A stretch of 33,583 bases of DNA, from IMG/VR virus record IMGVR_UViG_2684622669_000021, positions 1 to 33,583 of that record; one strand, given 5' to 3'. Below are positions 756-30,062 of the stretch, piece after piece. Position 1 is the stretch's first letter. Each line of letters starts with the position of its first letter. A program made the position numbers and the translations under genes. Source of the DNA: a virus (Duplodnaviria > Heunggongvirae > Uroviricota > Caudoviricetes). The notes beneath the pieces were generated by a model that saw only the letters and a list, made by a program, of their open reading frames with translations, made no database searches and was not told the origin of the DNA.

Positions 756-896
756 CTGTTCTCCAATGACTAGTCTAAAAACTAGTATTAAGACTATCAC
801 TTAAATAAGTGATACTGGTTGTCTGGAGATTCAGGGGGCCAGTCTAAACCCACCAAAAATTATCACACTCAAAATAATTAAAAACACAACACTTCC

Positions 897-17301: not shown

Positions 17302-17378
17302 GTGGCATTAGCTCAGTTGGACAGAGCAACCGCCTTCTAAGCGGTTGGTCGCAGGTTCGAATCCTGCATGCCGCGCCA
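17302..17378 (+). tRNA. tRNA-Arg, anticodon UCU (reads AGA), with encoded CCA
   Basis: Manual cloverleaf: acceptor GTGGCAT/ATGCCGC (one G-U pair); D-stem GCTC/GAGC; anticodon stem ACCGC/GCGGT with loop CTTCTAA (U33, anticodon TCT, A37); variable loop TGGTC; T-arm GCAGG-TTCGAAT-CCTGC; discriminator G; CCA. Related to but distinct from chromosomal argU. Confidence 0.9.
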
Positions 17379-17946: not shown

Positions 17947-19422
17947 TTATGCATAAGGGTCATAATCCGTTATGGCCCTTCCCTGCTGGCTTTGCTGTCC
18001 TGGTATATTTATGCGTTTCGAGACCGGGAAAGCAAACGTCAGCAGTAGCGCATCGCCTTTACCAGGAGAACGCCCAAGACGCTCTTTGATATCTTCCTTC
18101 GGTTCGATAACGATTTTACCGTCCACACGAACTTTGTACTCTGCCGCCGACAGGTCGTCTGCAGTTTCCTGGTCATCCAGCATGCCGCCCAGCCTCAGCC
18201 ATGTCTTACATGAGTTGAACATCTCCCCACGCTTGTTAAGCATCTGCGGGTCAGTGGACGCACCGCTGAACGGAACAAGTTGCCATGTACGTCCCCAGCC
18301 ATCACCGATTGACTTCAAACCGGTTCCGTAACCGAAGTCGATGAACACCGCGTCAGCCTGGTACTGGTCTTCAAAGTCAGCGATACGCTTCGCCATAATC
18401 AGATCGTCGGTGGTCTTGTTGCCGGTCCACAGCACCTTACTGTGCAGCCCCTGCCGCAGGTATATCACCGCGTCATCAACACCGGAGTATGCAGGGTCAA
18501 CGCCGATTATCACCGGAGCATGTGCCACCTGCGCAGCAGTTACCACCCGTTTCATTGCCTCGTCAGTAAGACCGGTAGGGATAAACTGCAATTCAGATGC
18601 ATCAGGGAATATACCGCGCACACGGATTTTAACGAAGTCGCTGTCTTCCCCGTAGTCATCAACCCATTTCTGCAACTGCTGTTTGTTGGTGCCTTCCACC
18701 GTCCGGCTGTCAATCTGCGCAGTTTTCCAGCGGTGTTTATATTTGCGGAAACATTCGCGGAAACGTCCGGTATTACGCGTCGGGTTTCCGAACGCCACCC
18801 AGATAATCTCAGTGTCTTCGTCCGTTAGCGCACCCTCGGCAACTTCCCACACCAGATCCGCAATGTTCGACGCTTCATCGAATACCACGATGATGCGTTT
18901 GCGCTCGTTGTGTAGTCCGGCGAATGCCTCAGTGTTGTGCTCAGACCAGGGGATTGCGTCAGCTCGCCACCGCTTGTCGTGCCCAGGATCATTGCTGTAC
19001 ATCGCGGTAGCGGTACAGGTAAACCAGTCTTTCGTGATAGCAAGGTTCGACCACTTGATAATTTCCGGCCAGGTCTTCGTTCGTAGCTGGTTGTCGGTGT
19101 TGGCGGTCACCACGACCTTACAATCCTCGCAAGTGGACATGCCCCAGTTGATGAGCATTGAGATGAATGCGGATTTACCAATACCGTGACCAGAAGCACG
19201 TGCCAGCATAAGCGGCTGATAACGCGTCTCTGGATTCTGCAGGTGATCACGTATCTCTCGGAACGCATCGGCCTGCCACTGACGTGGACCGGTAGCATGT
19301 GCCAGTTCAGTCCCCTCTTCCCCCCAAGGGAACGCATAGAGGGCATAGCCAAGCGGATCGTGAGTGAACCCTGCAATATCTTCGATTAACTGCTCTTCAG
19401 GAGATAACGCTGCATCTGTCAC
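17947..19422 (-). CDS. Terminase large subunit (491 aa)
   Basis: Walker A-like ARASGHGIGKS, Walker B-like IIVVFDEAS, and a C-terminal nuclease-type acidic segment (IGVDPAYSG...). ATGA overlap with terS. Confidence 0.85.
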   Translation of the reverse strand: MTDAALSPEEQLIEDIAGFTHDPLGYALYAFPWGEEGTELAHATGPRQWQADAFREIRDHLQNPETRYQPLMLARASGHGIGKSAFISMLINWGMSTCEDCKVVVTANTDNQLRTKTWPEIIKWSNLAITKDWFTCTATAMYSNDPGHDKRWRADAIPWSEHNTEAFAGLHNERKRIIVVFDEASNIADLVWEVAEGALTDEDTEIIWVAFGNPTRNTGRFRECFRKYKHRWKTAQIDSRTVEGTNKQQLQKWVDDYGEDSDFVKIRVRGIFPDASELQFIPTGLTDEAMKRVVTAAQVAHAPVIIGVDPAYSGVDDAVIYLRQGLHSKVLWTGNKTTDDLIMAKRIADFEDQYQADAVFIDFGYGTGLKSIGDGWGRTWQLVPFSGASTDPQMLNKRGEMFNSCKTWLRLGGMLDDQETADDLSAAEYKVRVDGKIVIEPKEDIKERLGRSPGKGDALLLTFAFPVSKRINIPGQQSQQGRAITDYDPYA

Positions 19423-20015
19423 TGATTACCATCCTGACGTTCTTTGAGTCGCTTCCTAGCTGCCGCTATGCGATCAGCAATTGTCACATTCACATTAACA
19501 TCCAAGCGTTCTTTGAATGCGTTGACGTCGACGTGCTTACCAATCAGTTCTAGGTTCTTCACCTTGTCAGGCCATTTAATTTTTTTGAGGATTGTCTCTA
19601 TCGAGTCCTCGTTCATGTTCATGATGGTCGATGACAGATCAAAGCCGCTAAGCGTAGTGCGCCATATTTTCGGCCACTCGCGGATTGGCTTAAGGCTCCC
19701 ATCGTCGTTGAGGATATCAATCACGTCCATCTGGTCGATCTCCACCAGGCGCATGAGAACGTAATCAGCACTGACGCGCATTCGTTTGTTGCGCTCCTCC
19801 ATCAACTCGGCAATCCGTTTTTGAATGCGTTCATCGCGCATCATGACACTGGCTTTAACTGCCGCTGTATTTGGGGAGAATCCTGCGTTAATCGCAGCCT
19901 GAGTCTGGTTTTCAGGCGTTTTGATGTATGACTGGCAATAAGCCTCCTGCATTGCTGTGAGCGGCTTAAATTGCGTTGATTTGCGTTTATAGGTTTTAGG
20001 TTCAGCAGGCATCAT
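19419..20015 (-). CDS. Terminase small subunit (198 aa)
   Basis: N-terminal signature ...LTAMQEAYCQSYIKTPENQTQAAINAGFSPNTAAVKASVMMRDERIQKRIAEL matches the terminase small-subunit family pattern. Start reassigned to an internal ATG; the track ORF carries a 26-aa extension. Confidence 0.8.
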   Translation of the reverse strand: MMPAEPKTYKRKSTQFKPLTAMQEAYCQSYIKTPENQTQAAINAGFSPNTAAVKASVMMRDERIQKRIAELMEERNKRMRVSADYVLMRLVEIDQMDVIDILNDDGSLKPIREWPKIWRTTLSGFDLSSTIMNMNEDSIETILKKIKWPDKVKNLELIGKHVDVNAFKERLDVNVNVTIADRIAAARKRLKERQDGNQ

Positions 20016-20133
20016 AACCACCCTGGTAATTGTTACCGTTGTGGTAATAGTAACATGCAAAATAAAGCCGCCATAGTTGGCGACAGTATTCAAAACCCAT
20101 CAAATTCATCATGCATAATCTACTCGTGACATG

Positions 20134-20475
20134 TCACACTATTAATTTCGTTTCATGCCAGCCTTTAGTCACCCAGCATTGCGAGTCACCATTACACGGG
20201 CATGAATTAACTGGAACTCTCTCGCCGCACTTACCGCAACATTTTCTGCTGATCGATTTTATACGCCCGCGCACGCGTGCATCATCCTGGCGAATCAGTA
20301 AAGCTATATACTCACCAAATTCGTAAGGCGCACGCCCGGGGCGACGCGTGGCACAGTTACGCTCCAGCATTTCAATTTCCTGAGCATCAAGCACAATTTC
20401 CAGCTTACGCACACCAGATGCAGCTTGTCTGGCTCTCTGAGCGGCTTTGCGCTCTGCTGCTGATTTAGCCATCAA
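20134..20475 (-). CDS. Hypothetical protein (113 aa) with a C-terminal Cys-rich, Zn-ribbon-like motif
   Basis: C-terminal RKCCGKCGERVPVNSCPCNGDSQC and a basic helical N-terminus. Last gene before terS. Confidence 0.5.
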   Translation of the reverse strand: MMAKSAAERKAAQRARQAASGVRKLEIVLDAQEIEMLERNCATRRPGRAPYEFGEYIALLIRQDDARVRGRIKSISRKCCGKCGERVPVNSCPCNGDSQCWVTKGWHETKLIV

Positions 20476-20746
20476 TATTCACCTTTATCGCGTACACCTT
20501 TACCGGTTTATCGCCGAAGTGCGGATGTGTGATTGTCTTGATTTCATATCCGTCATACGGAACATCAATTCTGCGGCTGGAATCGTCGCGCTTCGGATAT
20601 CCCTTTGTGATAATCAGTCGGTCATATTCGCGGAACATAATTCGCTTATTCCAGTAGTCATTACACAGGCGATACTCTTCCGTTTTCTCTCCGCGAATCA
20701 TGGCATCGAAGTATTCACCTTTAACGGCAAGTTGCAGGTTAGCCAC
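20465..20746 (-). CDS. Small ASCH/PUA-like (DUF3850-type) domain protein (93 aa)
   Basis: MANLQLAVKGEYFDAMIRGEKTEEYR... resembles the small phage ASCH-like family. Recalled, not searched. Confidence 0.45.
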   Translation of the reverse strand: MANLQLAVKGEYFDAMIRGEKTEEYRLCNDYWNKRIMFREYDRLIITKGYPKRDDSSRRIDVPYDGYEIKTITHPHFGDKPVKVYAIKVNIDG

Positions 20747-21650
20747 GGTTAACCTCCTGTGGCGGTTCTGGTAGCGGCATCCAGTGGGTTACCTCTTTGA
20801 GATACAGGTCTTCGCCATCACCGTCATCCCAAGTGGGCTTGCCATCATTAAACCAGTCGCCATATACGCCGACCTGAGTGTTGGGGATGTTTGGTGGGTA
20901 GTTGTTTTTAAAGTCAGCTGCTAACACATAGCATTGTCGCTCTCCCATTTCAGGCATTCGCTCACTACAGCTTATCCAACTATCCGGAGTTACCGGAGAG
21001 TTGCCAGCCACTCTACGCAAAACAGCCTTAACCGCCTCAATACGGTCATCATCGTAACTTTCCGCCGTATCTATGCGGTCGAGCATGATGATGGCGTTAT
21101 CAATATCAGGATTGCCAGTCCACTCATTACTGCGATTGGATTCGGCAGCCTGGTTACCAGATGCGGGTTGATTGTCGGCCTTACCCAGTCTGTCGTCGCT
21201 GCATGAATGCCCTTCCAGCCAGGCCAATGCTTGTCGCATGAAATACGCAATATGTTTGCCGTGGTAATCGTCTTCATCGATGTGAAAAGCGATACTGCGG
21301 ATGTATTCAATTGCGTTTTCGATGGCCTCTAACGCTATCGGCGCTGGCGGAGTGGTATATAATTTTCGACATTTGTATATCCAACCGGCATGGTCAGGCG
21401 TGTCTGTAAAGCGCAAATCGTCTTCGTAGCACTCACGACTACGTTCTTTCCATTCCGTCCACGGAACACCGCTATTCCAGGTGGGGCGAGTGCAGGACTG
21501 ATACAGAACAGGCTCTGCTTCCAGCGATGCCAGCACAATTCGTGCCAGTTCTTCCGCTTCTTCTGCTGGCAGTACAACGTTGCTACCAGGTCCGTATGTT
21601 TCGCGCCACTGCTTGATTGTCAGCAGTCGCTCTTTGGTAATAGTGGTCAT
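20739..21650 (-). CDS. DUF551-domain phage protein (303 aa)
   Basis: C-terminal ...WISCSERMPEMGERQCYVLAAD...GDWFNDGKPTWDDGDGEDLYLKEVTHWMPLPEPP is the DUF551-type signature common in lambdoid prophages. ATGA overlap with the upstream gene. Confidence 0.6.
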   Translation of the reverse strand: MTTITKERLLTIKQWRETYGPGSNVVLPAEEAEELARIVLASLEAEPVLYQSCTRPTWNSGVPWTEWKERSRECYEDDLRFTDTPDHAGWIYKCRKLYTTPPAPIALEAIENAIEYIRSIAFHIDEDDYHGKHIAYFMRQALAWLEGHSCSDDRLGKADNQPASGNQAAESNRSNEWTGNPDIDNAIIMLDRIDTAESYDDDRIEAVKAVLRRVAGNSPVTPDSWISCSERMPEMGERQCYVLAADFKNNYPPNIPNTQVGVYGDWFNDGKPTWDDGDGEDLYLKEVTHWMPLPEPPQEVNRG

Positions 21651-21856
21651 GTGTTAATCCTCAAAACTTTATGCCCGGGCGCAAAAGCACGCGTTTTGTC
21701 TTTGCTTATTCGCCAGCCATCCTTGCGCGCCTCTTTTGCACAGCCAGCCCATGACGTACCGATATATTCACCGAAGTCTGGCGTTTGATATTTACCATTT
21801 GTACACTGGCGACAATCACAGTAGAGATGCATGGTGTAACTTGCGGCAATAGCCAT
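21647..21856 (-). CDS. Small Cys-containing protein (69 aa), unknown function
   Basis: ATG at 21854-21856 preceded by AAGGAGAG. Sequence MAIAASYTMHLYCDCRQCTNGKYQTPDFGEYIGTSWAGCAKEARKDG... The track ORF 21647..22018 extends into the upstream gene. Confidence 0.5.
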   Translation of the reverse strand: MAIAASYTMHLYCDCRQCTNGKYQTPDFGEYIGTSWAGCAKEARKDGWRISKDKTRAFAPGHKVLRINT

Positions 21857-21857
21857 A

Positions 21858-22628
21858 TCACTCTCCTTTGATGCGAATACCAGCAGCGCGCTCGGCTTCA
21901 CTTTGTTCCCAAAACCACTTGTGAAGCGCCATAAGCTTTTCGTCAATCGGTGCATATTTGCGATTAAAGTAGGCCTGAGCATCTTTCTCAGATTCGTCCG
22001 GTAATTCGCCAGGGCCAAACAGTGTGTTATAAATCCATGCTAGTCCGCTCTTAGCGTCGCCAGTTGCCTGCCATTCGATAATGGCAGCCTGCATGACCAG
22101 AATGTTTTTCCCGATTAATAGGTCCAGTTCTTTGTACCGGTTGCGGATGTATGCATTCTCGCTTTGTAATTTTGCGTTGCGCTTTTCTGAGGCTTCAAGT
22201 AACGCCTGCTTATCGCGTAGCGCTTCTTCCAGTTCAGCAACATGGCATTCACTATCAATAAGGTTGTTCTCTGCTGCTTCAAGCTCAACACGCAGCTTCC
22301 CAACCGTAAGCGCAATCTCCTCGTTCTCCTGATCGCGGCGTTTTATGTATTGCTGGTTTCTTTCCCGTTCATCCAGTAGTGCCAGCACGGTAGCCGGGTT
22401 AGCCTCTGCTATGAATTCAGCGTTTGCATAAGCCTGAGCATCTGTTTCAACCAGGCAGTTAACATGACATTCTGCAATCACGCCACCGGGTTCTCCTTTC
22501 CATTTTTGACAAACAAAAACTCCTGTTATATTCCCATGCTGATTGACCGATGTATGCCCTACGATGTAGCTCCCTTTCGTTGCCTTTTCTGCCGCTTCAC
22601 GCAGTGCCTGATAGTTAATTTTGCTCAC
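21858..22628 (-). CDS. ead/Ea22-like family protein, paralogue 1 (256 aa)
   Basis: GTG start after AAGGAGGCAACCA. N-terminus [18 protein letters not shown]...; central coiled coil. GTGA overlap with the upstream paralogue. Confidence 0.7.
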   Translation of the reverse strand: MSKINYQALREAAEKATKGSYIVGHTSVNQHGNITGVFVCQKWKGEPGGVIAECHVNCLVETDAQAYANAEFIAEANPATVLALLDERERNQQYIKRRDQENEEIALTVGKLRVELEAAENNLIDSECHVAELEEALRDKQALLEASEKRNAKLQSENAYIRNRYKELDLLIGKNILVMQAAIIEWQATGDAKSGLAWIYNTLFGPGELPDESEKDAQAYFNRKYAPIDEKLMALHKWFWEQSEAERAAGIRIKGE

Positions 22629-22653
22629 TGGTTGCCTCCTTTGCGAAGCTGTT
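22621..22653. repeat. Junction repeat (copy 1) shared by the Ea22-like paralogues: RBS + GTG start + stop of the upstream gene
   Basis: TTGCTCACTGGTTGCCTCCTTTGCGAAGCTGTT is identical at 22621-22653 and 23205-23237. Confidence 0.8.
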
Positions 22654-23212
22654 CAGCAATACTTACGCATATCTCTGCGCCTCTAATCAGCCCCGGAACG
22701 TTCTTGTTTGGCCCAACTTCACCATCAACAAAATCAATCATCGCGTTACGAGCCATATCCACCCCCTGCGCACGTACTTCAGCCAGGAGAGCGTCGGTAG
22801 CTGGGGTTTCCGTGAAGTTGTCCTCCCAACCGTAGTACTCCTGACGACAGAAGTTATTAAATTCCTTCTCCGACTGTTTAAGCGCCGCATTCTCCACTGC
22901 CAGCGCCGCGCACTTGGCCTCAAGAGCTGCAACCACTTCCTGATGGTCTTTGTACTTAACGTATGAGCCGGAGATGTCATCACCTTCGGTGTTTAGCCAT
23001 GCGTCATTGCAATTCACTGCGTAGGTTCTGATGCTGATGCTCTCCCGCCCCTGACAGACGCCAGGCCAGTCAATAAAGTATCCGCAATGCCTACCCTCAG
23101 ACGTGCGCGCAGGATAAATGCCGTTATGACCCGGCAAAATATATGCTACCCATTCATCTTGCGTTGCCTGTTCCGCCGCCTCGCGCAGTTCTTGATAGTC
23201 AATCTTGCTCAC
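22625..23212 (-). CDS. ead/Ea22-like family protein, paralogue 2 (195 aa)
   Basis: GTG start at 23210-23212 after AAGGAGG. N-terminus SKIDYQELREAAEQ...; C-terminus ...ETPATDALLAEVRAQ...AEQLRKGGNQ shared with paralogues 3 and 4. Confidence 0.7.
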   Translation of the reverse strand: MSKIDYQELREAAEQATQDEWVAYILPGHNGIYPARTSEGRHCGYFIDWPGVCQGRESISIRTYAVNCNDAWLNTEGDDISGSYVKYKDHQEVVAALEAKCAALAVENAALKQSEKEFNNFCRQEYYGWEDNFTETPATDALLAEVRAQGVDMARNAMIDFVDGEVGPNKNVPGLIRGAEICVSIAEQLRKGGNQ

Positions 23213-23237
23213 TGGTTGCCTCCTTTGCGAAGCTGTT
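23205..23237. repeat. Junction repeat (copy 2)
   Basis: Identical 33-mer to 22621-22653. Confidence 0.8.
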
Positions 23238-23892
23238 CCGCACAATGCAGCAGGGCGTCCGTCGCTTCTTTCACCGTAACGATGTCGCCATCGTCCAGCC
23301 CGACAACCGTCGCGTCCTTAACGAACACCGAGCAAAGGTCATTAAACGCCTGCGCCCGCACTTCAGCCAGGAAAGCGTCGGTGGCTGGCGTTTCCCGTGA
23401 ACGGTAAGACCAAACAATGTCGTCTGTTTCACTGGGTTCTTCATGAGAGCAATTTGGGCAGACAGCAGTACAACCAGCATGATCTTCTATGAGCATCTTC
23501 AGCCACGAGTTCTCCTCCGCCAGCGTCACGCGACTGGCCTCCAGTTCTGCTACGCGCTGTTTTGCAGCATCCAGTTCAATCGACAATTTTTCCAACTGCT
23601 CTTTATGCTTTTTATATTCCTGATATGCGTGCCAAGACTGACCTTTGCGCACACTATCAGTGATATCAGTAATCTGTTCTGGTGTTAGCGTGGTCAGTGG
23701 CTGTGATGGGAAAATAAGCACTTTCCCGGAATCCCAATCAAAACCAGCGTGAATTGACTGAACCTCAACTGAAGGTGTTGAACCAATGCTGCCAGGCGAA
23801 TGAACAACGATTGTTACATCCATATCGCGACGATGGCTGTGGTTGTTGGACAAAATACGATTCACCAACTCAGAAAATTTGGAAAATTTCAT
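23209..23892 (-). CDS. ead/Ea22-like C-terminal module fused to a distinct N-terminal domain (227 aa)
   Basis: ATG start. N-terminus MKFSKFSELVNRILSNNHSHRRDMDVTIVVHSPGSIG... is unrelated to the SKINYQ N-termini. C-terminus ...[15 protein letters not shown]...AEQLRKGGNQ is shared with the other paralogues. Confidence 0.65.
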   Translation of the reverse strand: MKFSKFSELVNRILSNNHSHRRDMDVTIVVHSPGSIGSTPSVEVQSIHAGFDWDSGKVLIFPSQPLTTLTPEQITDITDSVRKGQSWHAYQEYKKHKEQLEKLSIELDAAKQRVAELEASRVTLAEENSWLKMLIEDHAGCTAVCPNCSHEEPSETDDIVWSYRSRETPATDAFLAEVRAQAFNDLCSVFVKDATVVGLDDGDIVTVKEATDALLHCAEQLRKGGNQ

Positions 23893-24179
23893 GCTGATTC
23901 CCCTTTCTCTGCTCTCTCCTGTCGGAACATCACTATCATCAGGTCGCCTTTTGTCGCTATCCTCGCTGTTGTGCCTGGTTCAATGCTGCCAAGTTCAAAT
24001 GCGTCATAGAACGCTTCTAATGCCTTCTGGCGTAGTTCCTGTTTGCGCCGTTTTTTCCACTGTTTCAGGAAAATGGAACCCAGCCATCGCCATGTACGGG
24101 ACATGATGTAAAGCCAACCGAGAAGTGCCAGACCGGTATTTAGGGCCGTATCGAGCGTTATCGTGGTGTCGATATTCAC
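23889..24179 (-). CDS. Small predicted single-pass membrane protein (96 aa) inside the Ea22-like array
   Basis: GTG start after AAGGAAGCAGCCA, overlapping the upstream stop. Hydrophobic segment ALNTGLALLGWLYIMSRTWRWLGSIF followed by a basic stretch KQWKKRRKQELRQK. Confidence 0.55.
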   Translation of the reverse strand: MNIDTTITLDTALNTGLALLGWLYIMSRTWRWLGSIFLKQWKKRRKQELRQKALEAFYDAFELGSIEPGTTARIATKGDLMIVMFRQERAEKGESA

Positions 24180-24877
24180 TGGCTGCTTCCTTTGCGAATC
24201 TGTTCCGCCCATTCTTCAAGGGATTTCTCCGCATATTCACCAGACAGGCCATCAATCGGATGCGCTTCATTAGCCAACTCTTCTTTCGCTGACAAAATCA
24301 TGCGTGTAACGTCGAAAACTTCACGCAAAGACTTATTGATAAATCCGTGATTGAACGCAGCAGCAAGACGGCTGGCGGTATAGTTAATCCCCTCGTTGCG
24401 TGCTTCCGCACGAATTTCAGCCAGAAAAGCATCGGTAGCTGGAGTTTCGCTGTGGTGTAGGGCATCGTTGATAATCATTGCAGCAACACCAGCCTGCCCT
24501 GCATCCGTGACCGACACATGATCAAGAGTTACAGCCATTGCGTGTTTCAGCCCGGCGTTCTCTGCCACCAGAGCCGCGAGCTTAGTCTCAAGCGGTGCTA
24601 TTCGGCACATAGCATCAATATTTGTGTCCTCCAGGCGCTTAATTTCACCAAGTAGCTCCAGTGCAACCTTTGGGTTGAATGCGGCAATATAACGAGCGTT
24701 GTTCTCTGCGTTTTTCAGTCCATCAAAGCCGGTCCATTTGATAACATCTTCACATCGTTTATCACCGGGCGTATGCACAGCATACGTACCTGTACCCGTC
24801 GAAATAAACGCGACCCATTCGCCCTGTGTTGCCTGTTTTGCTATCTCACGTAGTGCCTGATAGTTAATTTTGCTCAC
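24176..24877 (-). CDS. ead/Ea22-like family protein, paralogue 4 (233 aa)
   Basis: GTG start at 24875-24877 after AGGAGGCAACCA. N-terminus [23 protein letters not shown]...; conserved ...[15 protein letters not shown]... segment. Confidence 0.7.
24177..24204. repeat. Junction repeat (copy 3, diverged)
   Basis: CACTGGCTGCTTCCTTTGCGAATCTGTT, a diverged copy of the same junction. Confidence 0.6.
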
Positions 24878-25616
24878 TGGTTGCCTCCTGGCAAAGCTGG
24901 GCGACAATATCGCGATATTTATTCAGCTCCCGCAGCGCGACACAGACTCGCTCCCATTTCCGGATATCACTTTTCGCCCGACGCAGTTCGCGGTTTGCCT
25001 GTCGCAGCGATGGCAGAACCAGATTATCCACTCGATTCTCAAGCGGCTGCACAATGTCTGCCACAGTTTCTGTTTTAATATCTTCCTGTGTTGCAGCTTC
25101 CTGTCCCGGTAACGCAACACCTGCTGGTTGAGGAAAGGCCTTACCATCACTTTCCGTTACCAGCGCGGCTTTCGGCTCTGCTGGTAAATTATCGCCCGGC
25201 ATGCAGTAACGAAATTTACCGTTCTGATTAACGCGTGCCAGCCGCCCCGTTGCGGTTACCACCGCCAGCGTGGAAGCAACCTTGCGAGTACTGACACCGA
25301 ACTTACCCGCCAGTTCCTCACACGTTTTAGCCCCATCCTGACCGATAAACTCAATCATCATGTCTGCGGTAACTTTTTGTTCGACCTCCCCGGTCAGCAT
25401 ATCCTGTGCTTCAGATTTTACTGGCCGCTCTTCGGTTACCCGGGATTCACCTTCGCCAGCCAGAGACCAGGTGTGACCAGTTTTATCAACAACGCCATTT
25501 CTTTTGAGTTCCCACAGCTCGTTGACAGCCTCTTCACGACTGATATCAAGTCGCGCAGCCAGTTCTACCGACGTGGCTTTTCCCATTGCTTTCAGTGCGT
25601 CAAATACAGTTTCCAT
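24864..25616 (-). CDS. Winged-helix DNA-binding protein (250 aa) with two HTH-like modules
   Basis: ATG at 25614-25616 after GGGAGGAAA. Two HTH-like segments: [28 protein letters not shown] and [31 protein letters not shown]. Recalled as a common prophage family of unknown function. Confidence 0.55.
24871..24900. repeat. Junction repeat (copy 4, diverged)
   Basis: TGCTCACTGGTTGCCTCCTGGCAAAGCTGG, a diverged copy of the same junction. Confidence 0.6.
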
Positions 25617-25638
25617 TAAAATTTCCTCCCGGTAAAAA

Positions 25639-26385
25639 TCACTTCGCAATTCCTGGCTGGACGACATTCGGACGCCAGCTCTCCCAGTTAAAATTCACCC
25701 ATCGCCCGCCGTTCATGGTCATGCGATCCATAATCCGCTCGCCGAGCAATGTTTTCATGGCCTCATAGTTCAGGTTTGTCAGCATCCCCACGCTGCGCAT
25801 CGACGCTGTCCGGCGATCAACAATCTGGTGCAGCACCACCTGCTCGTTTTTTGTCTCGCGCTGAATGCCAATTTCATCAAGAACCAGCAGATCCACTTGG
25901 CACAGTTCCCGCAAAAATTTTTCGCCTGATTGCCCGTCGTCATAGCTGGCGTGTAGAGCACTCATGACATCAGCCACGGTAACCACAATCACTGTCTGGC
26001 CATCTTTCAGCAGGCGATTCCCGATAGCCGCCGCCAGATGGTTTTTTCCGGTACCAGGTTTTCCGCTGAACGCAAAATTTGTACACCCGGTCATCAGTTC
26101 ATCAGCGATAGATTTCGCCTGGTTCAACGCGTATCGCTGACCGTCGTTCTGCACCTGGTAATTCGCAAACGAGCATTTGCGGTGCAATGGCTGGATGCCA
26201 GAGCGATTCAGAATTTTTTCCACCCGCAACTGACGATTCTGACGGTTGATCTCCTCACAACGTTTCTGGCCTTCGGAAAGTTGCCACTCGCGCCACTCCG
26301 CTACCGTTTTGAATGGGGCGGTTACATGTGGCGGGGCCAGTCTGCGGATACGTTCAAGAATGCCTCCTGCCGCAATATTTTTCAT
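25639..26385 (-). CDS. DnaC-like replicative helicase loader (AAA+ ATPase), 248 aa
   Basis: Walker [16 protein letters not shown] and Walker [10 protein letters not shown]. Lies right after the replisome-organiser gene. Confidence 0.85.
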
Positions 26386-26391
26386 GGTCAG

Positions 26392-27357
26392 TTACCCCCT
26401 GAAGCCCGGCGGAATTTCGGTATCCGGTTCAGAAATGTGATTCACACAACGCTGTACAGGCGAACGCCCCAGACGAATAACCAGCTCATCCCATTTTTCG
26501 CGAAGCTTTGACGGGCTCATGACGTTTTTTACCCAGAAGGGATCCCGCTGCACCCGACCAAACATTTCGCAAATTTGTCTGTGAGTTCTGCCATCCAGCA
26601 TCCGCATTGTGCGCACATCATTGGCCCATGCAGCCCAGTTGGGTTCTTTCGGTCGCATGATTTCGCCATCATCGCTGGCAGCCTGCTCGTAAAGACTCAC
26701 GATTCGTCCCCAGATCCACTGCGCACACGCTAAATCTTCCTGGCTACCCCACTGGCGTTTTTTCGCACTGAACACAACCGCGTCAGGGTGTCGGGTTAAA
26801 AAATCCTGTTCAGCCGTCTGCATGTCCGGTTGCGAAGCTTCCGGACGAGAAGTGTTTTTATTCTCTGTAGTGATCTCTGTTGTATTCTCTGTAAGATCAT
26901 CAGGCCATTTTGACCCGATGACATTGTGTCGTTTTGAACCAATGGAGCGTGTCATTTTGGCCTCTTCCATCGTGTCATTTTGACCTGATGGAGCGGCGCA
27001 TTTTGACCTGATGGATTCGCTCACTTTGCCACCATCTAAAAGCTCGCTCTCGTAATTAATCGTGTAAAAATTAGTCATGTCACGCTTTGATTTGTTGAGC
27101 TTTTCGCAACGCAAAAGCCCCAGCGCTTTCAGACTTGCAAATGCGCGTTTTAACGTTGACTCTGACCAGAACGGGAACTGTTCCAGCCATTGTTCTGTTG
27201 TGTTATAAATCCAGCGAACACCATCACATTCCATGCCGGAACCGGTATCTCTCAACCAGTAATGCAGCTGCTGTAACACAATGGCTTCGTTCAGACCTAT
27301 TTTCATCGCCAGCTGAGTGTTAATAACCAGTGGGCGTTCAGCAAAAAGAAGACTCAT
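26392..27357 (-). CDS. Replication initiation/replisome organiser protein (O-like), about 321 aa
   Basis: Position upstream of the DnaC-like gene. N-terminal HTH-like region. Start uncertain: ATG at 27355-27357 or TTG at 27411. Confidence 0.6.
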   Translation of the reverse strand: MSLLFAERPLVINTQLAMKIGLNEAIVLQQLHYWLRDTGSGMECDGVRWIYNTTEQWLEQFPFWSESTLKRAFASLKALGLLRCEKLNKSKRDMTNFYTINYESELLDGGKVSESIRSKCAAPSGQNDTMEEAKMTRSIGSKRHNVIGSKWPDDLTENTTEITTENKNTSRPEASQPDMQTAEQDFLTRHPDAVVFSAKKRQWGSQEDLACAQWIWGRIVSLYEQAASDDGEIMRPKEPNWAAWANDVRTMRMLDGRTHRQICEMFGRVQRDPFWVKNVMSPSKLREKWDELVIRLGRSPVQRCVNHISEPDTEIPPGFRG

Positions 27358-27859
27358 AATTCCATCCGGCTTTTTGTTGATATTGCTGACGATACGCACG
27401 CTTGAAAGCAATGGCTTTTTCTATAAGCTCGTCAGTCTCACGTTCCACAACAGCTGGATCCGCAAAAAGCAGCCCGGACTCCACCACATCGCCATATTCT
27501 TTGTTTAACCCGGCGATCATGTACGTAATGCTTTTTCCGTCAGTAATTTCACAATACAACCTGAAATCGCTGATCCGGATAGCCTCCATAATTGCCGGAA
27601 TCAGCGCCGTGAATTTTTCACGCTTATCCCTGGTGTCGATAGCTTTCCAGCGTTCGAATATCTTCACCCTGTTAACGCCCAGCGCCCGTTGATCAACCGC
27701 GCCATCATCAAACGTGACGCGATGAACATCGATGTTCGGGCGTTCTTTCAGAGCCCAGAATGCTTCCGTGATTAATATCGTCGCCTGCTCCTGCGTCATT
27801 CCTGGTCGGCATACCCAGGCATCCAGAGCCTCGCGAGCCTGCTCAGGAGTGAATATCAT
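27338..27859 (-). CDS. Hypothetical early protein at the cII/YdaT position (173 aa)
   Basis: Lies between the Cro-like gene and the replication genes. Assignment is by position only. Confidence 0.45.
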   Translation of the reverse strand: MIFTPEQAREALDAWVCRPGMTQEQATILITEAFWALKERPNIDVHRVTFDDGAVDQRALGVNRVKIFERWKAIDTRDKREKFTALIPAIMEAIRISDFRLYCEITDGKSITYMIAGLNKEYGDVVESGLLFADPAVVERETDELIEKAIAFKRAYRQQYQQKAGWNYESSFC

Positions 27860-28118
27860 TGTTCACCGCCAGTGATTCATTCGACATACACTTATTTTCA
27901 CAAGGTAGTCCATCTGTTGGGTTGGGATAAATGTCAGGGCGAAGTTCGTGGGGAGTAATTTCCCAATTCAGTAATGCACAGAGTGACGACACGCGTTCAG
28001 CAGGAACCTTGCCTTTAATGAACCACTTGCCTACGGCCTGGGAGCTAATGCCAAAGTGTTTGCCAATGTCAGTTTTCGACATTTTTTTAGAGATCTTATC
28101 GTGAATTTGATTACTCAT
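27843..28118 (-). CDS. Cro/YdaS-like HTH transcriptional regulator (91 aa)
   Basis: HTH segment SKTDIGKHFGISSQAVGKWFIKGKVPAERV. Divergent from the repressor gene. Start at the ATG at 28116-28118 after GGTGGAAAG; the track ORF extends to a GTG at 28145. Confidence 0.6.
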   Translation of the reverse strand: MSNQIHDKISKKMSKTDIGKHFGISSQAVGKWFIKGKVPAERVSSLCALLNWEITPHELRPDIYPNPTDGLPCENKCMSNESLAVNNDIHS

Positions 28119-28157
28119 ACTTTCCACCAGTACTATTAATTTCACCTACGCTACCAT

Positions 28158-28195
28158 CAAAAACTATAAGTTTCAACACAAAACCTATAGTTTTG
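28158..28195. promoter_or_regulatory. Operator-like pair of near-palindromic 14-15-bp sites between the divergent repressor and Cro-like genes
   Basis: AAAACTATAAGTTT (28160-28173) and AAACCTATAGTTTT (28181-28194) are inverted copies of one motif with a CTATAG centre. Confidence 0.55.
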
Positions 28196-28224
28196 CTGAT
28201 TGGTGAAACCTTTGGTTGTATACT
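28194..28224 (+). promoter_or_regulatory. Candidate maintenance promoter for the repressor, likely giving a leaderless mRNA
   Basis: TATACT (28219-28224) lies 6 nt upstream of the repressor ATG at 28231 with no SD. Possible -35 TTGCTG at 28194-28199. Confidence 0.35.
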
Positions 28225-28230
28225 TAAAAA

Positions 28231-28641
28231 ATGAGTAAAATAAACCATCCAATATTTGCTGAGAGAGTTCGGCAAGCAATGAGCGAACATGGCTGGTCGT
28301 TAGCCGGTCTGGCTAAAAAGGTTATGCTGTCCCATACCGCTGTGCGTAAGTGGGCAACAGGAGAAACCATTGCCAGCGGAGAAAGATTAAAAAGACTTGC
28401 CGCGGTAACAGGAAAACCAGAACATTGGTTTTTTATGCCGCTAAATGAACATTCAAAGGAAGAAGATGCACCACCACTAATCCAGCTTGACGACAAAGAA
28501 AAGGCGCTATTGTCCCTTTTTAATCAGTTGCCAGAAACGGAAAAGCTGAGACTAATCATGCACACAAAAAGCATTCTTCATGAAATGGATCTTCTAAAAA
28601 ACGATGTATACGACATAATCAATGATATTCAAAAACAATAA
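28231..28641 (+). CDS. Prophage repressor, XRE-family HTH, RacR/CI-like (136 aa)
   Basis: N-terminal HTH FAERVRQAMSEHGWSLAGLAKKVMLSHTAVRKWATGETIASGERLKRLAAVTG. Divergent from the Cro-like gene and followed by its own terminator. Confidence 0.7.
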   Translation: MSKINHPIFAERVRQAMSEHGWSLAGLAKKVMLSHTAVRKWATGETIASGERLKRLAAVTGKPEHWFFMPLNEHSKEEDAPPLIQLDDKEKALLSLFNQLPETEKLRLIMHTKSILHEMDLLKNDVYDIINDIQKQ

Positions 28642-28653
28642 GTTACATGAAAA

Positions 28654-28678
28654 AAGCGCCTCCCTGGCGCTTTTTTTA
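28654..28678. terminator. Intrinsic terminator after the repressor gene, possibly bidirectional
   Basis: AAAAAAGCGCC-TCCCT-GGCGCTTTTTTT: 6-bp GC stem flanked by an A-run and a T-run. Confidence 0.7.
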
Positions 28679-28712
28679 TCCTCACAAATAAAACTTTATG
28701 TTCCATTGCCTA

Positions 28713-28741
28713 TTGACCAATAAAACCAATAGTTTTACCAT
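28713..28741 (+). promoter_or_regulatory. Candidate early-left promoter with an embedded operator copy
   Basis: TTGACC (28713-28718), a 17-nt spacer containing AAAACCAATAGTTTT (28722-28736), then TACCAT. The operator copy is one mismatch from the 28181-28194 site. Confidence 0.4.
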
Positions 28742-28819
28742 TCATTCCATCAACAACGAACCGCATCGTTGTCAGGCTAAAGTTCCGCTACCCCGGCGTT
28801 AAGGGGAAATGAGGTCAGC

Positions 28820-28975
28820 ATGGATACTATCGATCTTGGCAACAACGAATCTCTGGTGTACGGCGTGTTTCCAAACCAGGACGGCACCTTCACCGCAATG
28901 ACGTATACCAAAAGCAAAACGTTTAAAACCGAAAATGGTGCCCGTCGCTGGCTGGAAAGAAACTCAGGTGAGTGA
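28820..28975 (+). CDS. Small early protein (51 aa), YdaF-like
   Basis: ORF below the track cutoff, read directly: MDTIDLGNNESLVYGVFPNQDGTFTAMTYTKSKTFKTENGARRWLERNSGE, with a GAGG RBS. Family assignment is from memory. Confidence 0.5.
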   Translation: MDTIDLGNNESLVYGVFPNQDGTFTAMTYTKSKTFKTENGARRWLERNSGE

Positions 28976-28976
28976 T

Positions 28977-29105
28977 ATGGATTTTGACACAATCATGGAA
29001 AAGGCTTACGAAGAATACTTCGAAGGCCTTGCCGAAGGCGAAGAAGCTCACAGCTTCAACGAATTTAAACAGGCGCTTTCCAGTTCGGCAAAATCTAACG
29101 GCTGA
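28977..29105 (+). CDS. Small acidic early protein (42 aa), YdaG-like
   Basis: MDFDTIMEKAYEEYFEGLAEGEEAHSFNEFKQALSSSAKSNG. The ATG lies 1 nt after the upstream stop. Confidence 0.45.
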   Translation: MDFDTIMEKAYEEYFEGLAEGEEAHSFNEFKQALSSSAKSNG

Positions 29106-29134
29106 TAAGCGAAACAGCACCGCGAGGAATCAGT

Positions 29135-29353
29135 ATGCAGAAACGAGAACCCGTCATCATCGCGCCAGACTATACCGATGATGAACTTTATGAGTGGATG
29201 CGCCAGAAAATTAATGCAGCGCAGGATCTGAAATGGGCCAATGAAGCCAGGGCTAAGCAGGCTGAAAATCTGTCCGCTCTGGAGCAGGATATCACCAGGC
29301 TGGAAAAAGCAGCGGCATTAAGCATTGCCAGAATGATTACATACCCGCGTTAA
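29135..29353 (+). CDS. Small early protein (72 aa), unknown function
   Basis: GAGGA RBS. Helical charged protein MQKREPVIIAPDYTDDELYEWMRQKINAAQDLKWANEARAKQ... Confidence 0.5.
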   Translation: MQKREPVIIAPDYTDDELYEWMRQKINAAQDLKWANEARAKQAENLSALEQDITRLEKAAALSIARMITYPR

Positions 29354-29375
29354 TAGCTAACCAACGAGGCTAATA

Positions 29376-29705
29376 ATGGAATTTAAAGATTTACCAATGC
29401 AATTCCAGGAAATGGCAGCGAATATAGTTCGTTCCCAACTGGCGACTCTTGACCTGAGTACCGTAGAAAAAGAAACCATCGATACTATATCCGGTAACGT
29501 GCGTCGTGCCTTTATCGGTCTGTACGAAGAGAAGCAGCTCTCTGATAACCAGGATTTACATGAAAAATACTTCCTGGATCTAATGGACATCATTAATAAG
29601 GGGTTTGGCTTGTTAATGGAAAAGAAAGGGATTCGGATAGAACCCCTTGAAAATTGCTTCGTAACAAGAAGCATCAATTCTTTTGATTCAAAACAAGAGA
29701 ATTAA
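29376..29705 (+). CDS. Hypothetical protein (109 aa), AT-rich gene
   Basis: GAGG RBS 6 nt before the ATG. Its 3' end overlaps the 3' end of the convergent minus-strand gene by about 32 nt. Confidence 0.55.
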   Translation: MEFKDLPMQFQEMAANIVRSQLATLDLSTVEKETIDTISGNVRRAFIGLYEEKQLSDNQDLHEKYFLDLMDIINKGFGLLMEKKGIRIEPLENCFVTRSINSFDSKQEN

Positions 29706-29949
29706 TTACAGATTTAACATGCTCTTTCTCATGATTGAAGCTCTCAGGGTTGAAAGTGCCCGGCTGAAGCGAGTCGATATAATCAACGAGATTCTTTCGT
29801 ACCGTTTCATCTTTATTCATGGCAGATGCAAGGTATGAAATTGCTAACAATGTTATATCACTACGCGCCGCAGCATGCTGTAGTGTTTTATCAAAATCAT
29901 TAATTTTCCGTATAAGAGAGTTAAGAGTTTCATTGACATCAAACCCCAT
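29674..29949 (-). CDS. Hypothetical protein (91 aa) on the opposite strand within the early-left operon
   Basis: Start at the ATG at 29947-29949 (MGFDVNETLNSLIRKINDFDK...) after a strong AGGAGG-ATGAA RBS. AT-rich. The track ORF 29674..30027 carries a 26-aa extension. Confidence 0.55.
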   Translation of the reverse strand: MGFDVNETLNSLIRKINDFDKTLQHAAARSDITLLAISYLASAMNKDETVRKNLVDYIDSLQPGTFNPESFNHEKEHVKSVINSLVLNQKN

Positions 29950-30062
29950 TTCATCCTCCTGAGGGTTAGTAATTAAGGAGTTCTCCACGGGTGAGGTGGA
30001 GTGCGTGCGCCGGACACGGGTGAGCATCCGGCACTGACAATACCAACGTCAACGGCGAAGAC

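What the first reader, a model, noticed from the sequence alone, without database searches (positions are those of the whole stretch)
23889..24179. Small membrane protein inserted within the Ea22-like array
A 96-aa protein with one predicted transmembrane helix (ALNTGLALLGWLYIMSRTWRWLGSIF) and a basic juxtamembrane stretch uses the same junction as the Ea22-like genes, with a GTG start overlapping the upstream stop. No endolysin is adjacent, so a holin role is unlikely. It could be a superinfection-exclusion or abortive-infection-type protein.
Basis: inference. Interest (0 to 1): 0.4.

Follow-up and report, generated by a model that had tools for sequence, protein, structure and literature searches.

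The report
Small phage membrane protein, DUF4752 family
This is a real, conserved 96-residue gene of the catalogued but uncharacterised DUF4752 family, a small protein probably anchored in the inner membrane, which temperate phages of enteric bacteria carry as a free-standing cassette in their early operons; it is ordinary for such phages, and nothing here shows what it does.

Summary
Window 23889-24179 (minus strand) is a genuine 96-codon gene. Its GTG start overlaps the stop of the upstream Ea22-like gene (GTGA), and its stop overlaps the ATG of the next gene (ATGA). It is a full-length member of Pfam DUF4752 (E 3e-41) and PHROG 667, and RefSeq already annotates it as "DUF4752 family protein". 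It is the homologue of ST64T/L orf90, VT2-Sakai orf78 and BTP1 gp45. It evolves under purifying selection (dN/dS about 0.1-0.35).

The family is small (55 clusters at 50% identity) and, apart from three short contigs read as contamination, was found only in Enterobacterales, in temperate phages, prophages and P1-like phage-plasmids.

The family-wide architecture is an acidic N-tail, a hydrophobic helix, a Trp/Lys/Arg-rich stretch (net +5 to +10) and a conserved 35-residue helix plus beta-hairpin. This fits a single-pass protein with the N-terminus outside and the C-terminus inside.

The gene is an autonomous mosaic module. Recombination breakpoints sit at its start codon and at about codon 89, and its neighbours vary, so it does not depend on Ea22. 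It has no promoter, no terminator and no unusual GC content, and it always sits inside early operons. That argues against a role as a superinfection-exclusion gene expressed in lysogens. It matches no defence, holin or solved-structure family. Function is unknown and no publication was found.

The parts
23889..24179 (-). DUF4752-family coding sequence: 96 codons plus stop, with a GTG start
   Evidence: ORF and sequence. Pfam PF15944 E 3.3e-41, PHROG 667 E 1.7e-42. The identical protein is called and annotated on 17 public contigs. dN/dS 0.09-0.35.
24176..24199 (-). Upstream junction: the 3' end of the Ea22-like gene (…IRKGSSQ*) carrying a Shine-Dalgarno-like GGAAG, a 6-nt spacer, and the GTG start overlapping the TGA stop (GTGA)
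   Evidence: The motif is repeated at 22625-22648 and 23209-23232, with 0 expected by chance. The same GTGAATATCGAC start follows at least four unrelated upstream genes in other loci.
24066..24149 (-). Codons 11-38: hydrophobic, aromatic-rich helix (TALNTGLALLGWLYIMSRTWRWLGSIFL), the predicted membrane span. The family core is residues 12-27, followed by a K-S-G-x-W interface motif.
   Evidence: Wimley-White octanol 19-mer +9.5 kcal/mol, the highest in the window; 36 of 37 family members are above 0. Kyte-Doolittle 19-mer only 1.23. G16, G21, [WY]22 and I25 are conserved. AF2 predicts a helix over residues 3-60 with pLDDT 86-89 in this stretch.
24024..24065 (-). Codons 39-52: basic stretch next to the membrane span (KQWKKRRKQELRQK)
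   Evidence: Residues 28-52 have net charge +5 to +10 in all 37 aligned members, while the N-tail is at or below 0 in 36 of 37. By the positive-inside rule this places the C-terminus in the cytoplasm (inference).
23916..24023 (-). Codons 53-88: conserved C-terminal mini-domain, a helix (ALEAFYDAFEL), an EPG loop and a beta-hairpin (ARIATKGDLMIVMFRQE)
   Evidence: Conservation equals that of the membrane core (mean entropy 1.77 against 1.73). Nearly invariant residues are A53, F57, A60, F61, L63, G69, T76, I82 and R86. AF2 predicts strands at 71-77 and 80-86 at low confidence, pLDDT 56-69.
23889..23915 (-). Codons 89-96 plus stop (RAEKGESA*): a variable tail that belongs to the downstream module. 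It carries that gene's ribosome-binding site and the ATGA stop/start overlap.
   Evidence: The tail type co-varies with the downstream gene: …AEKGESA goes with MKFSKFSELVNRIL…, and …EKTK goes with a 74-aa protein. In E. coli genomes, matches to the downstream gene alone begin at nt 270-286 of the query, and matches to DUF4752 alone end at nt 265.
24176..24877 (-). Upstream neighbour: Ea22-like protein (233 aa from a GTG inside the same junction motif). Context, not part of the unit.
   Evidence: Pfam Ead_Ea22 E 9.5e-26. Called as 233 aa on the identical contig.
23209..23892 (-). Downstream neighbour: 227-aa protein with a PHROG 6026 N-domain fused to an Ea22-like coiled coil and C-terminus. 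Context; it is linked to the 96-aa allele by the shared junction.
   Evidence: PHROG 6026 and 368 hits. It follows every intact 96-aa DUF4752 allele with readable downstream sequence among the fetched loci. It also occurs without DUF4752.

Best explanation
SHOWN: The feature is an authentic protein-coding gene of the DUF4752 family (PF15944, PHROG 667). It is the counterpart of ST64T/L orf90, VT2-Sakai orf78 and BTP1 gp45. It lies in the early-right operon of an epsilon15/phiV10-like prophage, downstream of the replication genes. Its GTG start sits in a GTGA overlap behind a Shine-Dalgarno-like GGAAG, and its stop sits in an ATGA overlap with the next gene. No promoter-like or terminator-like site of its own was found. 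It is an autonomous mosaic cassette. The core of codons 1-88 is found behind at least four unrelated upstream genes and in front of several different downstream genes, in lambdoid, P22-like, epsilon15-like and P1-like elements.

INFERRED, fairly confident (about 0.7): The protein is a single-pass inner-membrane protein with about 10 acidic residues outside, one helix across the membrane (roughly residues 11-30), a Trp/Lys/Arg-rich helix lying at the cytoplasmic face, and a small acidic helix plus beta-hairpin domain in the cytoplasm. With no signal peptide and a very short N-tail, it would insert in the manner of Pf3 coat protein.

INFERRED, weak (about 0.35): It is made with the delayed-early genes during lytic growth. 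It acts as a membrane-tethered adaptor or inhibitor. The conserved G-x4-G-[WY] face of the membrane helix would mediate self-association or docking on a host membrane protein. The conserved cytoplasmic mini-domain would hold or block a cytoplasmic host or phage partner at the membrane.
For: Identity:
- Pfam and PHROG full-length matches.
- RefSeq annotation of near-identical genes.
- The identical protein on 17 contigs.
- Purifying selection.

Operon setting:
- Overlapping starts and stops.
- Promoter-like sites at or below the shuffle expectation, and none placed upstream of the gene.
- The same in the ATG-start lineage, whose 250-nt upstream 'gap' is a small wHTH ORF that overlaps the start.
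- In phage L the gene lies between ninA and ninB, after an annotated terminator.
- In P22-like and Stx phages it lies in the leftward early operon.
- GC content is not deviant.

Autonomy:
- Variable neighbours and breakpoints at nt 1 and about nt 265.

Topology:
- The strongest octanol-scale peak in the window, and above 0 in 36 of 37 members.
- N-tail net charge at or below 0 in 36 of 37, and residues 28-52 net +5 to +10 in 37 of 37.
- AF2 predicts a continuous helix over residues 3-60.
- Recurrent weak hits to the membrane-anchor region HemY_N in 11 of 37 members.

Partner binding:
- The membrane core and the C-domain are equally conserved and are the two most conserved parts.
Against: - The Kyte-Doolittle score of this allele (1.23) is below the usual 1.6 threshold, and two arginines sit in the segment. 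No dedicated topology predictor could be run.
- The C-terminal domain is modelled at low confidence, pLDDT 56-69.
- No partner is identified. No structural analogue was found in the PDB or BFVD.
- There are no expression data. The absence of consensus sigma-70 matches does not prove that the gene is silent in lysogens.
- The adaptor role is an argument from architecture and context only.
Confidence: 0.5

Rival explanations
1. Superinfection exclusion or abortive infection. The membrane protein would block DNA entry of incoming phages, or would kill or arrest the infected cell. This is analogous to P22 SieA, lambda SieB and T4 Imm.
For: It is a small inner-membrane protein encoded by temperate phages and dispensable in the sense that many related phages lack it. 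It is restricted to elements of Enterobacterales, which is compatible with a host-specific membrane target. T4 Imm shows that exclusion proteins can be early lytic genes (my own knowledge).
Against: - No PADLOC hit.
- No Pfam membership in SieB or Imm families; SieB reached E 0.25 in 1 of 37 members.
- No own promoter or terminator, no moron-like GC content, and always embedded in early operons that a repressor normally silences.
- The conserved soluble domain is predicted to be cytoplasmic rather than periplasmic, where incoming DNA and tail proteins arrive (inference).
Confidence: 0.2
2. A membrane-active small toxin or pore former (holin-, pinholin- or type-I-toxin-like). The helix would oligomerise through its small and polar residues and depolarise the membrane, tuning lysis timing or host shut-off.
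For: Small-residue and aromatic positions in the helix are conserved (G16, G21, [WY]22; N14 in close relatives), and a conserved charged or polar position (K/R at 28, R/Q/E at 31) lies next to the hydrophobic core. Its size is typical of such proteins.
Against: - It is not in a lysis cassette, and no endolysin or spanin is nearby.
- There are no holin-family hits.
- A pore former would not need the equally conserved 35-residue cytoplasmic domain.
- Expressing a depolarising protein early, together with the replication genes, would harm phage yield (inference).
Confidence: 0.1
3. An obligate partner of the neighbouring Ea22-like proteins. It would form a two-component unit in which the membrane protein anchors or regulates the coiled-coil Ea22-like protein encoded next to it.
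For: It is directly flanked by Ea22-like genes here and in many loci. In the fetched loci the 96-aa allele is always followed by the PHROG-6026/Ea22-like fusion gene. It is translationally coupled on both sides.
Against: - That linkage is explained by the position of the recombination junctions. The tail codons 89-96 belong to the downstream module.
- The 91-aa allele is followed by an unrelated 74-aa protein.
- Other lineages have DUF4406, wHTH, TraR-like zinc-finger or anonymous neighbours and no Ea22 gene adjacent.
- The downstream gene also occurs without DUF4752.
Confidence: 0.1
4. Not a membrane protein at all. It would be a soluble helical oligomer whose hydrophobic, aromatic N-terminal helix is buried in a bundle.
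For: The Kyte-Doolittle maximum is 1.23 for this allele, and as low as 0.65 for one family member. R29 and R32 lie inside the segment. AF2 shows one long helix without a break.
Against: - The octanol-scale peak is the highest in the window and is positive in 36 of 37 members. Several members reach Kyte-Doolittle 2.0-2.5.
- There is strict charge asymmetry across the segment in all members.
- Trp and Tyr cluster at both ends of the core, as at membrane interfaces.
Confidence: 0.1

Closest known systems
Pfam DUF4752 (PF15944) / PHROG 667: ST64T and phage L orf90, VT2-Sakai orf78, BTP1 gp45 (STMMW_03601), and the DUF4752 proteins of P1-like phages D6 and Ro157c2YLVW
   Same: It matches the HMM at full length, 83 of 84 profile positions at 139.6 bits. 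Length, architecture and early-operon setting are the same. Identity is 95% to the Ro157c2YLVW protein, 79% to D6, 56% to Sakai orf78 and 48% to BTP1 and ST64T.
   Different: Nothing essential differs. This allele has R29/R32 in the second half of the hydrophobic segment, where most relatives have S-A-G-K/R. It also carries the …AEKGESA tail dictated by its downstream neighbour. The family has no assigned function and no publication was found.
Superinfection-exclusion membrane proteins (P22 SieA, lambda/P22 SieB, T4 Imm); comparison from my own knowledge
   Same: They are small phage-encoded inner-membrane proteins that are dispensable for growth.
   Different: There is no sequence or profile relationship. 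SieA and SieB are expressed from the prophage, whereas this gene has no detectable promoter and lies in repressed early operons. Its conserved soluble part is predicted to be cytoplasmic.
Bacillus phage phi29 p16.7 (early membrane protein that tethers replicating phage DNA); analogy from my own knowledge, not tested
   Same: Both are early-expressed, non-essential and small, with an N-terminal membrane helix, then a helical linker, then a small C-terminal domain. DUF4752 often lies just downstream of replication genes.
   Different: There is no homology. DUF4752 also occurs far from replication genes, in the leftward operon and in P1-like plasmids. Its C-domain is acidic (mean net charge -2.7), which does not suggest DNA binding.
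AbrB/MazE/SpoVT swapped-hairpin domain (second half: helix plus hairpin)
   Same: The residue pattern 'h-x-x-h-x-x-G-x-x-x-h-x-h-x-x-G-x-h-h-h' lines up in register with AbrB residues 27-45.
   Different: There is no Pfam hit. Only half of that domain would be present.

Membership tests
DUF4752 (Pfam PF15944) | Full-length match to the family HMM above the gathering score | tested here: met
   139.6 bits against a cutoff of 27, E 3.3e-41, profile positions 1-83 of 84. All 37 aligned relatives match.
DUF4752 (Pfam PF15944) | Single-domain protein of about 85-100 residues from Enterobacterales or their phages | tested here: met
   It is 96 aa, and homologues are 85-102 aa. Named taxa are Escherichia, Salmonella, Shigella, Citrobacter, Klebsiella, Hafnia, Erwinia, Morganella, Serratia and Plesiomonas.
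PHROG 667 | Match to the PHROG profile | tested here: met
   E 1.7e-42, profile positions 1-93 of 94, category 'unknown function'.
Single-pass (N-out/C-in) inner-membrane protein | One hydrophobic segment long and hydrophobic enough to span the bilayer | tested here: inconclusive
   The octanol-scale 19-mer is +9.5 kcal/mol, the highest in the window, and is positive in 36 of 37 members. The Kyte-Doolittle 19-mer is 1.23, below 1.6, for this allele; the family range is 0.65-2.47. No DeepTMHMM or TOPCONS was available.
Single-pass (N-out/C-in) inner-membrane protein | Charge asymmetry across the segment (positive-inside rule) | tested here: met
   N-tail net charge is at or below 0 in 36 of 37 members, and residues 28-52 are net +5 to +10 in 37 of 37.
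Single-pass (N-out/C-in) inner-membrane protein | Experimental membrane localisation and topology | not testable with these tools
   This needs fractionation and PhoA/GFP fusions.
Superinfection-exclusion / abortive-infection proteins (SieA, SieB, Imm; PADLOC systems) | Sequence membership in a known exclusion or defence family | tested here: not met
   There were no PADLOC hits. At E up to 10, Pfam gave only SieB at E 0.25 in 1 of 37 members.
Superinfection-exclusion / abortive-infection proteins (SieA, SieB, Imm; PADLOC systems) | Expression from the repressed prophage (own promoter, moron-like unit) | tested here: not met
   No promoter-like or terminator-like site flanks the gene. It overlaps both neighbours. 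GC is 45-50%, like its surroundings. Consensus scans cannot prove the absence of transcription.
Superinfection-exclusion / abortive-infection proteins (SieA, SieB, Imm; PADLOC systems) | Protection phenotype against phage challenge | not testable with these tools
   This needs an expression strain and a phage panel.
Holin / lysis cassette protein | Located next to endolysin and spanin genes, with a match to a holin family | tested here: not met
   The neighbours are replication, Ea22-like, DUF551 and terminase genes. There were no holin Pfam hits.
Ead/Ea22-like family (PF13935) | Match to the Ead_Ea22 HMM, or a shared coiled coil and C-terminal domain | tested here: not met
   Only DUF4752 matches this protein. 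The flanking genes match Ead_Ea22 or PHROG 368.

The most novel reading that the evidence does not exclude
DUF4752 proteins would be a previously unrecognised class of phage early effectors that work from the cytoplasmic face of the inner membrane. One possibility is that they tether a replication or recombination factor, or a host regulator, to the membrane. Another is that they block DNA entry of competing phages from the inside during lytic growth. The conserved G-x4-G-[WY] helix would dock onto a specific enterobacterial membrane protein.
Probability: 0.25. Interest if true: 0.5.

Novelty: already known. Interest (0 to 1): 0.2.

Why it matters
As a sequence feature it is not new. The exact protein is already deposited and named as a DUF4752 family protein. 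The near-identical allele is present in 279 of 5426 complete E. coli genomes, mostly on P1-like phage-plasmids.

Its residual value is as a well-defined orphan. It is a compact, autonomous early gene under purifying selection. It is shared by Stx phages, P22-like Salmonella phages (including BTP1 of epidemic ST313), epsilon15-like phages and P1-like plasmids, and it has no known function.

This analysis adds three things that narrow the experiments worth doing. It gives a family-wide topology model. It shows that the gene is independent of its Ea22-like neighbours. It shows that the gene lacks the hallmarks of a gene expressed in lysogens.

Tried and rejected
1. The 107-aa reading from ATG 24212 was rejected. 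The extra 11 codons are the upstream gene's conserved 3' end in another frame and are not conserved where the upstream gene differs.
2. A profile search of all PDB sequences gave only noise, E at least 0.3.
3. Foldseek of the AF2 model against the PDB and BFVD gave no match with E at or below 0.001. The one plausible hit, an unnamed 86-aa viral protein with TM 0.55-0.61, is probably a distant family member. The afdb50 library was unavailable.
4. A second AF2 run with a more diverse alignment did not improve the C-terminal domain.
5. An AbrB/MazE half-domain resemblance was tested with hhalign and was not significant.
6. NCBIfam and PADLOC gave no hits.
7. Literature searches for DUF4752, PF15944, STMMW_03601 and ST64T orf90 returned no papers. 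Papers on the exo-xis region do not mention a membrane ORF.
8. The moron hypothesis (own promoter and terminator, deviant GC) was not supported.
9. Obligate pairing with Ea22-like genes was rejected on neighbour diversity and breakpoint mapping.
10. The scan of genome contigs added little. Only six loci were found. Three are tiny contigs labelled Trinickia, Xanthomonas and an Actinomycetes MAG, which look like enterobacterial contamination.
11. The diverse alignment A2 was too divergent for the search for related loci.
Full report
1. WHAT IS THERE

On the minus strand an ORF runs from a GTG at 24179 to a TGA at 23891-23889, which is 96 codons. The ORF lister extends it to an ATG at 24212 (107 aa). 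That extension is the 3' end of the upstream Ea22-like gene read in another frame.

Homologues are 85-102 aa. About 90 of the roughly 100 related loci examined start at the same GTGAATATCGAC (V/M-N-I-D-T-T), whatever lies upstream. The GTG overlaps the upstream TGA (GTGA) and is preceded by GGAAG plus a 6-nt spacer. The stop overlaps the ATG of the next gene (ATGA).

The 24-nt junction CTTCGCAAAGGAGGCAACCAGTGA recurs at 22625-22648 and 23209-23232 (exact) and at 24176-24199 (3 mismatches), against zero matches in 100 shuffles.

2. IS IT A GENE?

An ORF of this size is no evidence here, since 53 ORFs of at least 40 aa overlap the 6 kb around it. The evidence is as follows:
- A full-length match to Pfam DUF4752 (PF15944; 139.6 bits, cutoff 27, E 3.3e-41) and to PHROG 667 (E 1.7e-42).
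- 172 clusters of homologues at 90% identity.
- 55 representatives at 50% identity among 1.84 billion proteins.
- dN/dS of 0.09-0.35 against every relative diverged enough to be informative.

The exact protein is encoded on 17 public contigs. Window 19001-28000 is 100% identical to E. coli assembly GCA_001515025.1, contig BBWB01000018.1. RefSeq already names near-identical genes 'DUF4752 family protein'.

3. CONTEXT IN THE WINDOW

The window is a prophage. Its late genes resemble the phiV10/epsilon15-like coliphages (O157 typing phages 9 and 10, TL-2011b, phiv142-3), and its early region is lambdoid in layout.

The layout, from one end to the other, is:
- integrase (32465-33583) and a large exonuclease (30063-32165), on the plus strand;
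- a cI-like HTH repressor (28231-28641), on the plus strand;
- then, all on the minus strand and mostly overlapping: YdaS-like, YdaT-like, a 339-aa replication protein, a DnaC-like loader, a DUF1627 protein, Ea22-like (233 aa), DUF4752, a 227-aa protein (PHROG 6026 N-domain plus Ea22-like C-terminus), Ea22-like (206 aa), Ea22-like (256 aa), a 69-aa protein, DUF551, two small genes, and terminase small and large subunits.

No lysis gene is near. Within 19000-30000, promoter-like sites number 10 against 13.2 expected, and none precedes the gene. Terminator-like sites are at background level. GC is 45-50%, like the flanks. The gene therefore reads as one cistron of the early-right operon, translationally coupled on both sides.

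4. DISTRIBUTION AND MOSAICISM

The near-identical allele occurs in 279 of 5426 complete E. coli genomes, at 209 places on plasmids (P1-like phage-plasmids of 87-110 kb) and 95 on chromosomes.

At protein level the family is in 103 phage records. These include P1-like D6 and Ro157c2YLVW, Stx1/Stx2 phages including VT2-Sakai (orf78, between the TraR-like orf73 homologue and an Ea22 fragment), P22-like ST64T/L/BTP1 ('orf90', between ninA and ninB), epsilon15-like SPN1S, and Klebsiella, Hafnia and Erwinia phages. Distant members with a taxon name come from Salmonella, Morganella, Serratia, Plesiomonas and E. coli. Apart from three tiny contigs that look like contamination, the family is restricted to Enterobacterales and to temperate elements.

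Neighbour analysis of about 100 loci shows the following:
- At least four unrelated upstream genes: Ea22-like tails of several types; an 83-98-aa protein ending …KAEKQEPPQ; a 156-aa protein ending …FYQGNFQEVA; and a small wHTH protein. DUF4406 occurs upstream in other lineages.
- Several downstream genes: the MKFSKFSELVNRIL… fusion protein; a 74-aa protein, MTEQTMTNRELVDAAIELAGDFYSM…; and others.

One and the same 85-aa Salmonella protein sits in four different settings:
- twice after lambda-type O/P replication genes (followed by an Ea22-like gene in one of these);
- once in the P22-type leftward operon after cIII/Arf/Erf/Abc2;
- once in an Ea22 array.

Breakpoint mapping in E. coli genomes places the module edges at the start codon and at about nt 265 (codon 89). 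Matches to the downstream gene alone begin at nt 270-286, and matches to DUF4752 alone end at nt 265. The variable tail (…AEKGESA, …EKTK, …ATSE) co-varies with the downstream gene because it carries that gene's ribosome-binding site.

The DUF4752 core is thus an autonomous cassette. It shuttles between early operons through short conserved junctions. Its presence 'inside the Ea22 array' reflects shared junction sequences, not dependence on Ea22.

5. THE PROTEIN

Family-wide, the features are:
- a short N-tail, net charge at or below 0 in 36 of 37 members;
- a 16-residue hydrophobic core (12-27, A-L-N-T-G-L-A-L-L-G-W-L-Y-I-M-F) with G16, G21, [WY]22, [YF]24 and I25 conserved;
- a K/R-S/A-G-x-W motif (28-32);
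- six more hydrophobic residues;
- K-Q-W-x-K-R-R-K-Q-x-R-R-Q-K; residues 28-52 carry net +5 to +10 in all 37 members;
- a conserved 35-residue segment (A53, F57, D59, A60, F61, L63, I66, E67, P68, G69, T76, K77, G78, I82, R86, E88), net acidic with mean charge -2.7.

AF2, with either alignment, gives one helix over residues 3-60 (pLDDT 86-89 over 11-40) and a hairpin at 71-77 and 80-86 at low confidence (pLDDT 56-69). The low confidence may mean that the small domain folds only in an oligomer or on a partner (inference).

Hydrophobicity depends on the scale. The Kyte-Doolittle 19-mer is 1.23 for this allele (family range 0.65-2.47), because of R29/R32 and many Trp, Tyr, Gly and Thr residues. 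The Wimley-White octanol 19-mer is +9.5 kcal/mol, the highest of all ORFs in the window, and is positive in 36 of 37 members (scale values are from memory).

Together with the strict charge asymmetry, the most economical reading is a single-pass protein with the N-terminus outside and the C-terminus in the cytoplasm. I put this at about 0.7, because no dedicated predictor or experiment was available. The membrane core is as conserved as the C-domain (mean column entropy 1.73 against 1.77). This suggests the helix is an interaction surface and not just an anchor.

6. WHAT IT IS NOT

- It has no NCBIfam name.
- It has no PADLOC hit.
- At E up to 10, Pfam gives only compositional echoes: HemY_N in 11 of 37 members and SieB at E 0.25 in one.
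- It has no relative of solved structure by sequence profile or by fold, and none in BFVD.
- A pattern resemblance of the C-terminal helix plus hairpin to the second half of AbrB/MazE domains is not significant.
- No paper in the library mentions the family or its locus tags. The literature on the exo-xis region treats the flanking orf73 and ea22 but not this ORF.

7. MECHANISM

Shown: it is a conserved coding gene, an early-operon cistron coupled to its neighbours, and an autonomous module.

Inferred with fair confidence: it is a single-pass inner-membrane protein with a cytoplasmic C-terminus.

Inferred weakly (about 0.35): it is made with the delayed-early genes during lytic growth and acts as a membrane-tethered adaptor or inhibitor. 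Docking or self-association would go through the G-x4-G-[WY] helix, and the mini-domain would hold a cytoplasmic partner at the membrane.

In phage L the gene lies behind an annotated terminator in the nin region. By established lambda/P22 biology, that makes expression dependent on antitermination, that is, lytic.

Rivals:
- Exclusion or abortive infection (0.2). Nothing positive supports it, and the operon setting speaks against expression in lysogens.
- A pore or toxin (0.1). The location is wrong, and such a protein would not need the conserved cytoplasmic domain.
- An obligate Ea22 partner (0.1). Neighbour diversity contradicts it.
- A soluble helical oligomer (0.1).

8. VERDICT

The feature is an already catalogued family member (DUF4752) of unknown function, ordinary for temperate enterobacterial phages. 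Interest is low (0.2).

The most novel reading not excluded is a new class of membrane-tethered early effectors, or exclusion from the cytoplasmic side. I give it a probability of about 0.25 and an interest of 0.5 if true.

Noticed in passing
window 21858-22628 (-): The 256-aa Ea22-like protein has a C-terminal domain (residues 145-243) that matches the PADLOC profile named 'DpdH' at E 1.6e-36 (profile positions 13-111 of 127). This domain is also PHROG 18739/250. A phage early protein sharing a domain with a component of the Dpd DNA-modification defence system could be of interest as mimicry or anti-defence.
   Followed up: no
window 22625-22648, 23209-23232, 24176-24199 (-); weaker copy near 24864-24890: A conserved 24-nt gene-border cassette encodes the Ea22-type C-terminus (…EQLRKGGNQ*) and also contains an AGGAGG ribosome-binding site and the GTG start of the next gene (GTGA). 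It is shared by unrelated downstream genes and coincides with mosaic breakpoints in other phages. It is most likely a recombination linker that shuffles early accessory genes.
   Followed up: partly
window 23209-23892 (-): The 227-aa gene has no Pfam hit but is a chimera. A PHROG 6026 N-domain (residues 1-113) is fused to an Ea22-like coiled coil and C-terminal domain (PHROG 368). Recurrent breakpoints at about 23510-23566 in other genomes show that the N-domain is exchanged as a unit. The array therefore looks like a set of Ea22-type scaffolds with swappable heads.
   Followed up: partly
window 17302-17378 (+): A tRNA-Arg (anticodon TCT) lies on the strand opposite to all flanking phage genes, in the 1.3-kb gap between the 559-aa gene (14975-16654) and the large terminase (17947-19422). 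The same tRNA is annotated in O157 typing phages 9 and 10.
   Followed up: no
window 390-800 (-) and 66-359 (-): An IS3-type transposase OrfA (HTH_Tnp_1, E 2.4e-19) lies at the left edge, next to the tail genes. The adjacent 97-aa ORF has the second-highest hydrophobic peak of the window and no Pfam hit.
   Followed up: no
window 30063-32165 (+): A 700-aa protein combines a fragment of exodeoxyribonuclease VIII (residues 8-68) with a C-terminal Rv2179c-like 3'-5' exoribonuclease domain (E 2.1e-69).
   Followed up: no
window 24864-25667 (-): A DUF1627 protein with winged-helix-like segments lies directly after the DnaC-like loader. It has weak similarity to Ren-like exclusion protein PHROG 142 (E 2.2e-06) and to Csa3/CARF-type PADLOC profiles (E 1e-05).
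   Followed up: no
window 21647-22018 (-): The mechanical 123-aa ORF overlaps the end of the 256-aa gene by 160 nt. Public gene calls and PHROG 926 indicate that the real gene is the 69-aa product starting at the ATG one base after the upstream stop (about 21856).
   Followed up: partly
L019, L023, L024 (genome contigs): DUF4752 sequences 53-93% identical at protein level sit on contigs of 384-3228 bp labelled Trinickia soli, an Actinomycetes MAG and Xanthomonas pisi. These are almost certainly enterobacterial or phage contamination in those assemblies.
   Followed up: no
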